Source: a virus
DNA length: 49,831 nucleotides
UHGV virus genome: UHGV-0044336
Strand: one strand, 5' to 3'
Part shown: in pieces, positions 30,001 through 33,000 of the stretch
How positions within the stretch are numbered: position 1 is the first letter of the stretch
Layout: every line of letters starts with the position of its first letter
Position numbers: made by a program

Positions 30001-33000
30001 TAGGAGTAGCATTGAAGTGAACGAGGTTATGCTTGTCTTATATTATCCTCTATTTTAAAAACATCAGCTGGTTGTGTAAGAGTTTTTATTGTTTTATCTT
30101 GTTGACTTTGCTTTTATGAAAACAGAGTGATTGATACAATGAAAACCTTAAGTGGGAAAGAGTTTAGGAAATTATTTAATCGTTATGAGACAGGATTCTA
30201 TCTAAGTGAGTTTGAATACTTAAAGGACTTTGATCCTTTGTTTCCTGAATGCGTAGGGAAAGAATTAAAGTTGGGTTATAAACGAAAAGTTGATGTATGG
30301 TGCGAAGAGGATGCTGCGCTATATGCAGAATTTATAGCTACAAAAGAAAGGCTGAAAAGAGGCCGGTTAATCCTAAAAATAAACCAAGTGTGGTCGCGTG
30401 TATATCCTGCTTATATTTATGCAATTGAAGAAAGAATAAATGTCAGGGCAAAGGGGAGAGAGTCATTTAAGTATGAAACTGTGCAAGAAAAACAATGTAA
30501 ACTTTCCATAATGTTAGATGGTCTGAAAGACCTTGAATGTGAAATAGCTATGATTTCAAGTGAGTTTGAAATTGAAAAACACTCTATGCACTATTTTTAT
30601 ATGATTTTTGATATTGAACGCTATATAAATGACTGCAGTTACTTTGTTTTTTCTGCTGCTAAAGTTGTTAAAGGCGTGATTCAATGCATTGGTTACATTG
30701 ACAAAAATAACAAAGCAAGTTGCGATGAATTTTATTCAGGCAGCTATGAATGCTTGGATGATGATCAGGAAACACTGAACTATTTAAATGAATCATGCGC
30801 AGAGGGTATAGACGCTGATAAAGATCTCATCAGGAAGAATGAGTTATTAGCCTTATCCCTGAAGGAATTGTATCAACTTCTCGTTTCAAAAAAATAACAA
30901 GTAATACGGCGAGCGATATGACGTGCCATGGGATATCCGCACCCAGCAGCATGTTGTCTCCACGATGTCCGCAGTTCGCTCATAATAGACATTCACTACA
31001 GTTATAGTAGAAGGTATGCATGCTGCTGAGTGGGGAAAGTGTGAAAGAAAAGAAGACAGCTGCTTTGTTTGTCGTCACGTTTATCTTCATTGGCTATGCA
31101 AGTCGTAATACAAGGCGGGACAAAACTGAGACACATAAGGCCTCGCAATGGCTTGCAAGGCCACACATGTATTGAGATGTTAATAAAATGTAGACTTGTA
31201 ATTTTGATATAAATGGTAGAGAAAATCTTTCCCCAAAATAAAAACGAACGTCAATGAAATCAAACGGTTGAATAAAGTTGATTTTGGCTAATACAAAGAC
31301 AAGAAAATAATATTTATGATTAAATATCAGCGAGTTGAATACATAATTTTTATATACTGCTGCGCCACATGGGGTGGGTTGAAGCGGCTGACTTAATTGT
31401 TAAAGGTATGGAAGGCGCAATCAACGCGAAGACCGTAACCTATGACTTCGAACGTNNNNNNNNNNNNNNNNTGACTTCGAACGTCTGATGGAAGGCGCTA
31501 AACTGCTGAAATGTTCAGAGTTTGGTGACGCGATCATCAAGAACATGTAATCTCTACATGTGTTAAATATTGAAACGGGCGTATAACACGCCCGTTGTTT
31601 TATGATGATGTAAAATCTTCCCCAAAACTTTCCCCAAAACCCTTCCCCAAAACTGGCTATTTTCTATGCTGTTTTGATATCTACGATAATCCAGTCTTTA
31701 CCACGATCATCATTGTATCGGTCGGTCATTTTTCTGGATTTATGACCTAACAACTTTTGCGTATCCAGACCCTGTTCCCGATATAACCGTTCTGACAGAG
31801 ATCGCTGCTCATGAAATGTGGGCGCAGTTCCTGGCTCCCATTTTATGCCACATTTTTCCCTGGCCTTTTTAAAAGCCGTTGTAAGAGTATTTGCAGACAC
31901 CTGGTCTCCTCTGTTTGCTTGAGAGGTAGTGTGACGGTAATGGACCAGATATTTACTAACAACAGCATCCCTGCACTGAGATATAACTTCACGAAGGGTA
32001 ATATTCAGAGCATCGCATTTCAGGTTAAGCGGAATAGCAAGTTTTGAACCGGTTTTTTCCTGAGTAATGTGCAACATGTCGTCCCAGATATCAGAGAATT
32101 TCAAATTGCAGATATCGCCTAAACGTTGTCCAGTGACAAGAGCAAGTAGCATCCCGCATTTTAAATAGGGCTGCCGTCTGCTTACGCTGTCAAATATTGC
32201 CTGCCATTCGGGCAGTGATAATCTTTGGCGGTTTACTCGATTTCGCGGTTGTTTTGTTGCCTGCGCTGGGTTAAATCCTGGCGGAACATGTCCTGCGTGT
32301 TGTGCTTCTTTGAAGACGTCGATCAACACCATTCTCACGACTTGCGCCATCCTGTTATGACCTTCAGCCTTTACAGCATCAATTATTTCGGCAATATCAA
32401 GTGCGGTAATATCCTTGAGGTGTTGCATTCCACAATGCTCACGGAAAAGACGAATGGGTTTGCCTTTTTGCCGATAGGAGTTGGGTCTTAGTTCATTATG
32501 TTGCAGCCTGTCCTCCTGGATAGAAATATATTTATCAAGCCATTCTGTCACCGTAATGTCTGAGCGCCTGCCTTTCATTCTTTCTAGACGCTCATTGACG
32601 CTTAATATTTGTCGGGTACGTTGTTCAGCAATAATGGTATTTGCTTCAGTAGCAACTTGTTTTGCTTCATTCTCATCAGTTCCTAAGCTATGAAAACGAC
32701 CGGATAGTGGATGTTTGTATTGCCAATATACCTTTCCGGTTCGCTTATCTAATTTGCAATATAAATTGGGTATAGAGATTTTGTGAGATCGGGGTCTAGC
32801 AGCCATCAGCGATTATCCGTTGGAGTTTTGGGTTTGCGTTTATTGGGAGTTGCGGTTCTGCAAGCGTTCCTACAAAACGGGAATTTCGGTCAATCATCCA
32901 GTAGCGACCAACTTTTATAGCGGGTGGGGCCATCATTTTCCCTTGCGCGTATTTTTTCAGAACTCGCTCACTTGGTGCTAAGTCCCCAAATTCTTCTTTA

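What the first reader, a model, noticed from the sequence alone, without database searches (positions are those of the whole stretch)
30139..30897. AT-rich orphan gene beside attP, next to an IS remnant
A 253-aa ORF with no recognisable motifs lies in a strongly AT-rich block between the sitABCD cargo and attP/int, immediately after a degraded IS3-family transposase fragment. Att-proximal positions in prophages are recurrent insertion points for lysogenic-conversion or defence genes.
Basis: partly seen in the sequence, partly recalled or inferred. Interest (0 to 1): 0.6.

Follow-up and report, generated by a model that had tools for sequence, protein, structure and literature searches.

The report
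Expressed orphan accessory gene of phage 21
This is a real, conserved gene of unknown function that sits next to the integration site of the classic E. coli phage 21 and its prophage relatives. It is switched on while the virus lies dormant and also turns up in other mobile elements, so it is a good but still unproven candidate for a host-modifying or anti-phage gene.

Summary
The ORF is real: ATG 30139 to TAA 30897, 252 aa, 34% GC in a 50% GC window. It lies between sitABCD and the icd-type att site and integrase. It is already catalogued but unexplained. It is 100% identical to 'hypothetical protein' CPT_21_31 of phage 21, PERCE_30 of LF82 prophage Perceval, RefSeq WP_000567449.1 and PHROG 20520. 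It occurs in 760 of 5,426 complete E. coli genomes.

It has no Pfam or NCBIfam match, no solid PADLOC match, and no relative beyond one 50%-identity cluster among 1.8 billion representative proteins. A confident AlphaFold model (pLDDT 92.5) shows a small N-terminal alpha/beta domain plus four long helices, with no informative fold match.

dN/dS is 0.16-0.41. Published LF82 RNA-seq shows lysogen transcription at about cI level while the ORF just upstream stays at background.

Sibling phages 1W and 4A7 carry 498 unrelated bases in its place. The roughly 1-kb cassette recurs in an ICE, in integrase islets and beside Avs8 in other Enterobacteriaceae. In e14 the same slot holds mcrA.

Verdict: an autonomously expressed, mobile prophage accessory gene ('moron'). 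A defence or exclusion role is plausible but untested.

The parts
30139..30897 (+). Protein-coding gene of 252 aa plus stop. RefSeq WP_000567449.1 starts 12 nt upstream at GTG 30127. Equivalent to phage 21 CPT_21_31, Perceval PERCE_30/LF82_189 and PHROG 20520.
   Evidence: ORF list. 100% identity to 20 phage records. Annotation. PHROG match E = 1.4e-177. dN/dS 0.16-0.41. AF2 pLDDT 92.5. Transcribed in the LF82 lysogen.
30025..30138 (+). Conserved 5' flank of the cassette and presumed promoter/operator region. It includes a CAAC-N2-GTTG inverted repeat (about 30064-30073), an invariant TTGAC (30102-30106) and the TTGT-N6-TTGT that phage 21 annotators labelled a CII site (30089-30102).
   Evidence: DNA homology to five other genera starts here. 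Alignment. CII-site annotation. No canonical sigma-70 promoter was found by the scan. The promoter is inferred because the upstream ORF LF82_188 is at background while LF82_189 is expressed.
30898..30983 (+). Conserved 3' flank of the cassette. No terminator or RNA structure is supported.
   Evidence: Homology end points. Alignment. RNAalifold found no covariation. No terminator in the scan.
29700..30015 (.). Degenerate insertion-sequence remnant upstream of the gene. It includes an IS3-type OrfA-like peptide, GKRYSEELKIEAVKRVVERV.
   Evidence: Frame translation. HTH_Tnp_1 E = 0.005, below cutoff. Repeated DNA on more than 2,000 plasmids. The same remnant is linked to the cassette in Citrobacter telavivensis.
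29578..31076 (.). Variable segment of the b-region, 1,499 bp (IS remnant plus gene plus flank). It is replaced by an unrelated 498-bp stretch with no RefSeq-annotated gene in sibling phages 1W and 4A7.
   Evidence: blastn break points. Annotations. Population counts are 760 genomes for the ORF allele against about 220-300 for the alternative.
25991..29440 (-). sitDCBA iron/manganese ABC transporter operon, the neighbouring cargo, transcribed divergently from the gene.
   Evidence: ORFs. Annotation in CFT073, phage 21 and Perceval.
31354..31550 (+). Phage-borne 3' fragment of icd (isocitrate dehydrogenase) containing the crossover region. Positions 31456-31484 are an artificial 16-N plus 13-bp duplication join.
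   Evidence: Annotations. Alignment to phage 21, Perceval and CFT073.
31616..31652 (+). Three YYTTCCCCAAAA repeats, annotated in phage 21 as attP subsites P1-P3.
   Evidence: Sequence. Phage 21 misc_feature mapped onto the window.
31664..32806 (-). Phage 21-type tyrosine integrase; the excisionase follows at 32796-33032.
   Evidence: ORFs. 98.9-100% identity to the integrases of phage 21, Perceval and ev017.

Best explanation
The feature is a self-contained accessory gene cassette (a 'moron') in the non-essential b-region of phage 21-type lambdoid prophages.

**Shown**
- About 960 bp travel as a unit: 114 bp of conserved 5' flank, one ORF, and about 85 bp of 3' flank.
- The ORF is under purifying selection.
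- The phage can do without it.
- It is transcribed from the repressed prophage at roughly the level of the cI repressor, independently of the silent ORF just upstream.
- Transcript level is 8-fold lower in LB stationary phase than in DMEM or inside macrophages.
- The same cassette sits at the edges or cargo regions of unrelated mobile elements in other Enterobacteriaceae.

**Predicted**
- The product is a soluble cytoplasmic protein with no signal peptide or transmembrane segment.
- It has a small basic N-terminal alpha/beta domain, which is the most conserved part.
- This is followed by an acidic bundle of four long helices carrying conserved Cys/His residues and an LDDD motif. There is no recognisable catalytic domain.

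**Inferred**
- It acts in the lysogen by binding something (protein or nucleic acid) rather than by catalysis.
- Its most likely role is in conflicts between mobile elements: superinfection exclusion, anti-phage defence or counter-defence that benefits the carrier element.
For: **Real gene**
- 252 stop-free codons in 34% GC DNA, chance about 8e-10.
- dN/dS is 0.16-0.41 across six genera-level copies.
- The AlphaFold model has pLDDT 92.5 and pTM 0.84.

**Dispensable and variable**
- It lies between sit and attP in phage 21.
- It is absent from phages 1W and 4A7, which share the integrase and sit.
- Both alleles segregate in E. coli.

**Autonomous expression in lysogens (LF82 RNA-seq)**
- LF82_189 log2(fpkm+5) is 7.1-8.0 in DMEM and in macrophages, and 4.4 in overnight LB.
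- cI reads 6.2-8.1. The upstream LF82_188 reads 3.0-4.8. cII reads 2.3-3.3.
- In NC101, the last prophage gene after sitA drops by log2FC -9.8 on prophage deletion, the same as the cI-like regulator. Its identity with this ORF rests on synteny only.

**Mobile cassette**
- DNA homology is limited to about 30020-30980 in five other genera.
- Contexts seen are an ICE, a CP4-like island next to an HNH gene, small-integrase islets and a site abutting PD-lambda-4/Avs8.

**Positional analogy**
- In e14, mcrA occupies the same last-gene-before-icd' slot.

**Weak defence lead**
- 7 of 20 family members hit the PADLOC candidate PDC-M13C over residues 2-25, best E = 5e-4.
Against: - No phenotype is known.
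- There is no solid match to any of 5,027 PADLOC models.
- Fold searches return only generic helical bundles.
- In NC101 the protection given by the whole prophage was reproduced by the sRNA svsR alone, so this gene is not needed to explain it.
- No conserved partner gene accompanies the cassette.
- Only 2 of about 8 foreign contexts contain recognisable defence genes.
- No canonical promoter or terminator was found.
- LF82 authors did not list it as a moron, because in overnight LB it is only about 3-fold above the prophage background.
Confidence: 0.4

Rival explanations
1. It is a DNA-binding regulator. The N-terminal beta-alpha-alpha-beta-beta unit would be a MerR/Xis-type winged helix. The long helices would dimerise or sense a signal. 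The protein would tune host or prophage transcription, possibly autoregulating through the conserved CAAC-N2-GTTG repeat in its own 5' flank.
For: - The secondary-structure order E3-5, H6-13, H22-31, E40-42, E51-55, followed by a 55-residue helix, matches the MerR/excisionase layout. That comparison is from my own knowledge; the model is.
- The N-terminal domain is basic (pI 8.6) and the most conserved part.
- There is a conserved inverted repeat upstream.
Against: - No sequence support exists. A Pfam scan of the N-terminal domain is empty even at E <= 10, a PDB profile search found nothing relevant, and hhalign against the window's own Xis gives probability 0.1%.
- The would-be recognition helix (SEFEYLKDF) is acidic and aromatic, which is unusual for DNA reading.
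Confidence: 0.2
2. It is a host-adaptation or virulence accessory factor, useful to ExPEC/AIEC during growth in host-like conditions. It would be co-selected with sitABCD and have nothing to do with phages.
For: - It is linked to sitABCD in 760 E. coli genomes, including CFT073, Nissle 1917, LF82 and APEC O18.
- It is 8-fold higher in DMEM and macrophages than in overnight LB; MB6 versus LB gives log2FC 3.0, q = 2e-22.
Against: - In other genera the cassette occurs without sit, including in the plant- or environment-associated Mangrovibacter.
- Expression is as high in DMEM without macrophages as inside them, so the effect looks like growth state rather than a host signal.
- The protein is predicted cytoplasmic, with no secretion signal.
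Confidence: 0.12
3. It is a lysogeny-establishment gene driven by a CII-activated promoter, as implied by the CII site the phage 21 annotators placed 36 bp upstream.
For: TTGT-N6-TTGT lies at 30089-30102, next to weak promoter hexamers, as is typical for activator-dependent promoters.
Against: - The gene is transcribed in stable lysogens where cII is at background (2.3-3.3 against 7.1-8.0).
- The motif is low in information. About 5 chance matches are expected in a 43-kb genome (my calculation), and the annotators marked several.
- The cassette works in non-phage contexts that have no CII.
Confidence: 0.05
4. It is a selfish or neutral hitch-hiker, or a decaying relic with no function for phage or host.
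For: - No function or partner is known.
- It sits beside IS debris.
- There is very little diversity within E. coli, with >=99% identity in 759 of 761 records. That is compatible with recent clonal spread rather than selection.
Against: - dN/dS is 0.16-0.41 at dS up to 0.8.
- The frame is intact and the start codon conserved in six genera.
- The 5' flank is more conserved than synonymous sites.
- The structure prediction is confident.
- The transcript is abundant.
Confidence: 0.08

Closest known systems
Escherichia phage 21 gene CPT_21_31 (UMO75446.1), LF82 prophage Perceval PERCE_30/LF82_189, RefSeq WP_000567449.1, PHROG phrog_20520
   Same: The protein is identical (100%) and in the same position, between sitA and the icd'/attP/int region.
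   Different: Nothing differs. These are the same gene. All are annotated 'hypothetical protein' or 'unknown function', even after HHpred in the phage 21 annotation.
Morons of lambdoid phages in the Hendrix/Juhala sense (for example lambda bor and lom, HK97 gp15; examples from my own knowledge)
   Same: It is an extra gene between conserved modules. It has deviant base composition, is absent from sibling phages, and is transcribed from the repressed prophage.
   Different: No canonical promoter or terminator flanks it. The product is cytoplasmic rather than an envelope protein. No phenotype is known.
mcrA of cryptic prophage e14 (E. coli K-12), a Type IV restriction enzyme
   Same: It has the same chromosomal attachment site (icd) and the same slot. 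It is the last prophage gene on the + strand, just before the displaced icd 3' pseudogene.
   Different: There is no sequence or fold relationship. McrA is an HNH nuclease, and this protein has no nuclease motif.
[not shown]
   Same: All have long antiparallel helices. CorA also has a small alpha/beta domain packed at the N-terminus.
PADLOC candidate PDC-M13C (70-residue profile)
   Same: Residues 2-25 of 7 of the 20 family members align to profile positions 19-43, best E = 5e-4.
   Different: The hit is borderline, covers about 25 residues only, and is to a candidate system that has not been validated. The rest of the protein is unmatched.

Membership tests
PHROG phrog_20520 / WP_000567449.1 family (function unknown) | Full-length profile match | tested here: met
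   E = 1.4e-177, residues 5-256 against profile positions 1-252 of 252. 100% identity to 20 phage records.
Prophage moron | Not required by the phage: absent from close relatives that keep the flanking modules | tested here: met
   Phages 1W and 4A7 have the same integrase (99.7%) and sitABCD, but 498 unrelated bases replace window 29578-31076.
Prophage moron | Base composition different from the surrounding phage genome | tested here: met
   34.1% GC against 49.7% for the window.
Prophage moron | Transcribed autonomously from the repressed prophage | tested here: met
   Published LF82 RNA-seq gives LF82_189 at 7.1-8.0, upstream LF82_188 at 3.0-4.8 and cI at 6.2-8.1, all as log2(fpkm+5). It is only about 3-fold above background in overnight LB, so the LF82 authors did not list it.
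Prophage moron | Own promoter and terminator recognisable in the sequence | tested here: inconclusive
   No + strand sigma-70 consensus site or intrinsic terminator was found around the gene. The conserved 114-bp 5' flank with an invariant TTGAC suggests a non-canonical promoter.
Known or candidate anti-phage defence systems (PADLOC-DB v2) | Significant HMM match to a component protein | tested here: not met
   Only PDC-M13C matches, over about 25 residues, with E = 0.0034-0.0077 for this protein and best E = 5e-4 among 20 homologues.
Known or candidate anti-phage defence systems | Enrichment next to defence genes (defence-island context) | tested here: inconclusive
   It lies next to PD-lambda-4/Avs8 in Intestinirhabdus alba and near a T5orf172 protein in Citrobacter telavivensis. 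There is an HNH_2 neighbour in C. werkmanii. The other contexts show no defence genes. The sample of about 8 contexts is too small for statistics.
Known or candidate anti-phage defence systems | Protection against phage infection when expressed | not testable with these tools
   This needs plaque assays. Whole-prophage deletion in NC101 increases susceptibility, but the authors attribute that to the sRNA svsR.
MerR/Xis (HTH_17, AlpA)-type winged-helix DNA-binding proteins | Sequence-profile similarity of the N-terminal domain | tested here: not met
   The Pfam scan of residues 1-72 of 15 members gave 0 families at E <= 10. The PDB profile search returned nothing relevant. hhalign against the window's own Xis gave probability 0.1%.
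MerR/Xis-type winged-helix DNA-binding proteins | beta-alpha-alpha-beta-beta fold of the domain | tested here: inconclusive
   The secondary-structure order fits.
   HTH_Tnp_1 gives E = 0.0049 and 17.5 bits, below the 24.1-bit cutoff, over 18 residues. The DNA is repeated on more than 2,000 plasmids. One such match lies about 150 bp downstream of an IS3 transposase gene.
CII-dependent promoter (lambda pRE/pI type) | TTGC-N6-TTGC around -35, and dependence on CII | tested here: not met
   A degenerate TTGT-N6-TTGT is present. However, the gene is expressed in lysogens where cII is silent and sits in CII-free elements.

The most novel reading that the evidence does not exclude
The cassette encodes a new single-protein factor for conflicts between mobile elements (superinfection exclusion, abortive infection or anti-defence). 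It would be built on a fold family with no detectable relatives. It would be carried as a roughly 1-kb plug-in module that moves between lambdoid phages, ICEs and integrase islets of Enterobacteriaceae. It is present in 14% of complete E. coli genomes, including CFT073, Nissle 1917 and LF82.
Probability: 0.3. Interest if true: 0.6.

Novelty: new member of a known kind. Interest (0 to 1): 0.4.

Why it matters
Phage 21 is one of the founding lambdoid phages. The same gene rides in the sit-carrying prophage of many ExPEC, AIEC and probiotic strains, including CFT073, Nissle 1917, LF82 and probably NC101. A gene transcribed as strongly as the repressor in the dormant prophage, conserved under selection and repeatedly captured by unrelated mobile elements almost certainly does something for its carrier. 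Yet it has no relatives, no motif and no fold match.

If it proves to be an exclusion, defence or counter-defence protein, it would add a new family. It could also affect phage susceptibility of clinically and therapeutically used strains. If it is a regulator, it could explain prophage-dependent phenotypes now credited to sitABCD or to the sRNA svsR. Either way it is cheap to test: one gene, one promoter, and a classic phage.

Tried and rejected
- **Fragment of a known gene:** rejected. Pfam, NCBIfam and PDB sequence searches were empty. The ORF is full length and conserved in six genera.
- **Remote homology:** a profile search of 1.84 billion representatives returned only its own 50% cluster plus fragments.
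- **Winged-helix N-terminal domain:** no sequence support.
- **Conserved partner gene (two-gene system):** none. Neighbours in different genera are unrelated.
- **Structured RNA or terminator in the conserved 3' flank, or a known RNA family nearby:** no covariation, and no Rfam hit above threshold.
- **Functional link to sitABCD:** rejected, because the cassette occurs without sit elsewhere.
- **Typical ColV-plasmid linkage:** only 6 plasmid records carry the gene, and most look like chromosomal or mis-assigned contigs.
- **Literature:** searches by accession and locus tag found no functional study.
- **NC101 locus tag:** I could not confirm by sequence that GQ584_RS07115 is this ORF. Synteny is the only basis.
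Full report
**1. The observation**

The + strand carries an ORF from ATG 30139 (an in-frame GTG lies at 30127) to the stop at 30895-30897. Every homologue in other genera begins at the same MKT methionine, so 30139 is the conserved start. The ORF is 34.1% GC, against 49.7% for the window and 50.4% for the sit genes. With the local base composition, 252 stop-free codons have a chance of about 8e-10. The order is sitDCBA on the - strand, then the ORF, then a 3' fragment of icd, then three TTCCCCAAAA repeats, then int and xis on the - strand.

**2. What the window is**

The window is 99.6% identical to Escherichia phage 21 and to LF82 prophage Perceval over 25001-31455. It holds 16 N plus a duplicated 13-bp tgacttcgaacgt inside the icd fragment. 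This is a 29-bp insertion relative to phage 21, Perceval and CFT073. Both ends of the window lie in one porin gene, and the gene order is that of a circularly permuted lambdoid genome. So the window is a prophage joined at its att repeat in silico.

In CFT073 the gene is the last prophage gene before the displaced icd 3' pseudogene at attR. In the phage 21 virion genome it lies about 690 bp before attP.

**3. Already catalogued, never explained**

The protein is 100% identical to several annotated entries:
- phage 21 CPT_21_31;
- Perceval PERCE_30;
- entries in 18 further phage records.

It is RefSeq WP_000567449.1 in CFT073 and FXCREC028, and the same locus, annotated 'hypothetical protein', matches at 100% DNA identity in Nissle 1917, ATCC 25922 and APEC O18. 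It occurs in 760 of 5,426 complete E. coli genomes, almost always at >=99% identity. All annotations read 'hypothetical protein'. The phage 21 genome paper used InterProScan, BLAST and HHpred and assigned no function. PHROGs holds it as phrog_20520, function unknown.

**4. Homology and structure**

Sequence searches:
- Pfam, NCBIfam and PDB sequence searches find nothing.
- The 5.8-billion-protein search finds 23 clusters at 63-99% identity. Those that carry a source name are Enterobacteriaceae (Citrobacter, Klebsiella, Mangrovibacter), apart from one Aeromonadaceae MAG.
- A full HMMER profile search of 1.84 billion representatives finds only that one 50%-identity cluster plus fragments.
- Only 3 of 185,579 species-representative genomes carry a copy.

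AlphaFold2 gives a confident model, with pLDDT 92.5 and pTM 0.84. Strands and helices at 3-55 form a small alpha/beta domain. Long helices follow at 56-110, 115-147, 153-189 and 206-251.

Fold searches:
- Foldseek against PDB and BFVD has no hit below E = 0.08.

The protein has no hydrophobic stretch fit for a membrane span. The N-terminal domain is basic (pI 8.6) and the bundle is acidic (pI 5.0). Invariant residues concentrate in the N-terminal 75 residues and around H151, C166, C183, C195 and L206-DDD.

The beta-alpha-alpha-beta-beta order recalls MerR/Xis winged helices. Three sequence tests gave no support for that idea.

**5. Is it a working gene?**

Pairwise dN/dS among six DNA copies is 0.16-0.41, with dS up to 0.8.

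Published RNA-seq of the LF82 lysogen (GSE154648, re-analysed in PMC9928086) gives the following values, as log2(fpkm+5):

| Gene | DMEM 1 h | DMEM 6 h | Macrophage 1 h | Macrophage 6 h | LB overnight |
|---|---|---|---|---|---|
| LF82_189 (this ORF) | 7.3-7.7 | 7.4-7.5 | 7.8-8.0 | 7.1-7.2 | 4.4 |
| cI | 8.0-8.1 | 7.1-7.2 | 7.8-7.9 | 6.7-6.8 | 6.2-6.4 |

Across all conditions, the ORF immediately upstream (the IS remnant) reads 3.0-4.8 and cII reads 2.3-3.3. The gene is thus transcribed on its own in the dormant prophage.

Because it is only about 3-fold above the prophage median in overnight LB, the LF82 authors did not list it among the Perceval morons.

In NC101, the hypothetical gene that follows sitA and ends prophage NC-SV falls by log2FC -9.8 on prophage deletion. 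The cI-like regulator falls by the same amount. I infer from synteny only that this is the same ORF.

**6. A mobile, dispensable cassette**

DNA similarity to copies in Citrobacter, Klebsiella, Mangrovibacter, Intestinirhabdus and an Enterobacteriaceae MAG is confined to about 30020-30980. The 114-bp 5' flank is more conserved than synonymous sites. It contains a CAAC-N2-GTTG inverted repeat and an invariant TTGAC. No canonical sigma-70 promoter or terminator was detected, and the 3' flank shows no covarying structure.

Among phage records with a >=95% identical integrase, 1W and 4A7 keep sitABCD but replace window 29578-31076 with 498 unrelated bases carrying no RefSeq-annotated gene. D2, 3W and 4C10 also have the integrase but are absent from the ORF's hit list, and I did not inspect their slot. 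The alternative allele is in roughly 220-300 E. coli genomes. So the slot is polymorphic and the phage does not need the gene.

Contexts elsewhere:

| Organism | Context |
|---|---|
| Citrobacter sedlakii | Cargo region of an ICE |
| Citrobacter werkmanii | CP4-like island, after an HNH_2 gene |
| Klebsiella variicola, C. telavivensis | Islets with a 200-aa tyrosine recombinase |
| Enterobacteriaceae MAG, Mangrovibacter | Chromosomal islets |
| Intestinirhabdus alba | Directly after PD-lambda-4_A |

In I. alba, the PD-lambda-4_B gene breaks off at about residue 141 of 303, exactly where cassette homology starts. PD-lambda-4 is the capsid-sensing STAND protein Avs8.

IS3-family OrfA remnants lie just upstream of the cassette in the window and in C. 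telavivensis (the same remnant). A different one lies upstream in Mangrovibacter. This hints at IS-assisted movement. No neighbouring gene is shared between contexts.

**7. Interpretation**

Four points are shown:
- It is a genuine protein gene.
- It is an autonomously expressed, dispensable accessory gene (a moron).
- It is a roughly 1-kb unit that hops between mobile elements.
- The slot is variable. In e14, which uses the same icd site, that slot holds the restriction gene mcrA.

The function is inferred. The protein has no catalytic motif. It is cytoplasmic, built from a conserved small domain and a helical bundle, and made constitutively in growing lysogens. I think it most likely acts by binding.

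Its carriage pattern is typical of genes that act in conflicts between mobile elements. It is single-gene, AT-rich, at element edges, sometimes beside defence genes, and spread across phages, ICEs and islands. I put that reading at about 0.3-0.4. A borderline similarity of residues 2-25 to the PADLOC candidate PDC-M13C, seen in 7 of 20 members with best E = 5e-4, is a lead and not evidence.

Points against this reading:
- No PADLOC family matches solidly.
- The NC101 prophage's protective effect was reproduced by the sRNA svsR alone.
- Most contexts lack known defence genes.

Rivals and my estimates:

| Rival | Estimate | Main point |
|---|---|---|
| Winged-helix regulator | 0.2 | Topology only, no sequence support |
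| Host-adaptation factor co-selected with sit | 0.12 | The cassette occurs without sit elsewhere |
| CII-driven establishment gene | 0.05 | Contradicted by expression with cII silent |
| Functionless hitch-hiker | 0.08 | Contradicted by purifying selection and the conserved flank |

**8. Novelty and score**

The gene itself is already in the databases. What this analysis adds is the case that it is a live, expressed, mobile moron with no relatives and no fold match. I file it as a new member of a known kind (prophage moron of unknown function). Interest is 0.4. It is a well-defined, easily testable candidate in a classic phage and in medically relevant strains, but nothing yet shows an unusual mechanism.

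Noticed in passing
window 31456-31484 and 23139-23230: The window holds two N runs. The first (16 N) is followed by a duplicated 13-bp tgacttcgaacgt and is a 29-bp insertion relative to phage 21, Perceval and CFT073. That marks an in-silico join of prophage ends at the att repeat. The second (92 N) lies in the tail-fibre region. Both window ends fall in one porin gene, consistent with a rotated circular sequence.
   Followed up: partly
window 29578-31076 versus L012/L013 (phages 1W, 4A7): Sibling phages with the same integrase and sitABCD carry an unrelated 498-bp stretch here, with no gene annotated under it in the RefSeq genomes. That allele is found in roughly 220-300 of 5,426 E. coli genomes, against 760 for the ORF allele.
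   Followed up: yes
L009 (Intestinirhabdus alba) 5574-9941: A full-length PD-lambda-4_A (Avs8) gene is followed by a PD-lambda-4_B gene that stops at about residue 141 of 303, exactly where homology to the cassette begins. The cassette appears to have replaced the 3' half of a defence gene.
   Followed up: partly
window 30064-30107: The conserved 5' flank holds an inverted repeat CAAC-N2-GTTG (CAGCTGGTTG in the window) and an invariant TTGAC. It is more conserved across genera than synonymous sites of the ORF. This may be an operator/promoter, but it is untested.
   Followed up: partly
L005 7736-7882 (Mangrovibacter); window 29835-29915: Different IS3-family OrfA remnants lie immediately upstream of the cassette in Mangrovibacter and in the window. 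C. telavivensis shares the window's remnant. This suggests IS-assisted capture or movement of the cassette.
   Followed up: partly
window 31020-31175: A 51-aa ORF with one hydrophobic stretch is annotated in phage 21 as a putative membrane protein (CPT_21_32). Homology to phages 1W and 4A7 resumes inside it at 31077, so it is probably not a conserved gene. A hairpin at 31139-31162 lies within it.
   Followed up: no
window 31616-31652: Three tandem YYTTCCCCAAAA repeats lie between the icd terminator and int. Phage 21 annotators label them attP subsites P1-P3.
   Followed up: no
L001 (CFT073) 5105-6041: RefSeq annotates sitA of CFT073 as frameshifted (pseudogene), whereas the window's sitA is intact at 304 aa. 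CFT073 also keeps a 41-aa integrase remnant just beyond the icd' fragment. That indicates an older icd-site element beside the present prophage.
   Followed up: no
window 29505-29540: An AT-rich palindromic stretch (aaaatgaaaatgattatcattagc) lies upstream of sitA and looks like a Fur/MntR-type box. It belongs to sit regulation rather than to the ORF. In LF82, sitA is induced in macrophages while the ORF is not co-regulated.
   Followed up: no
L020 (plasmid NZ_CP098209.1) 1088-2281: A 14.8-kb E. coli 'plasmid' record carries sit and iuc genes with the IS remnant (98.7% identity) and a copy of the ORF at only 72.5% aa identity and partial coverage. Most likely this is an error-rich assembly rather than a divergent allele.
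   Followed up: no
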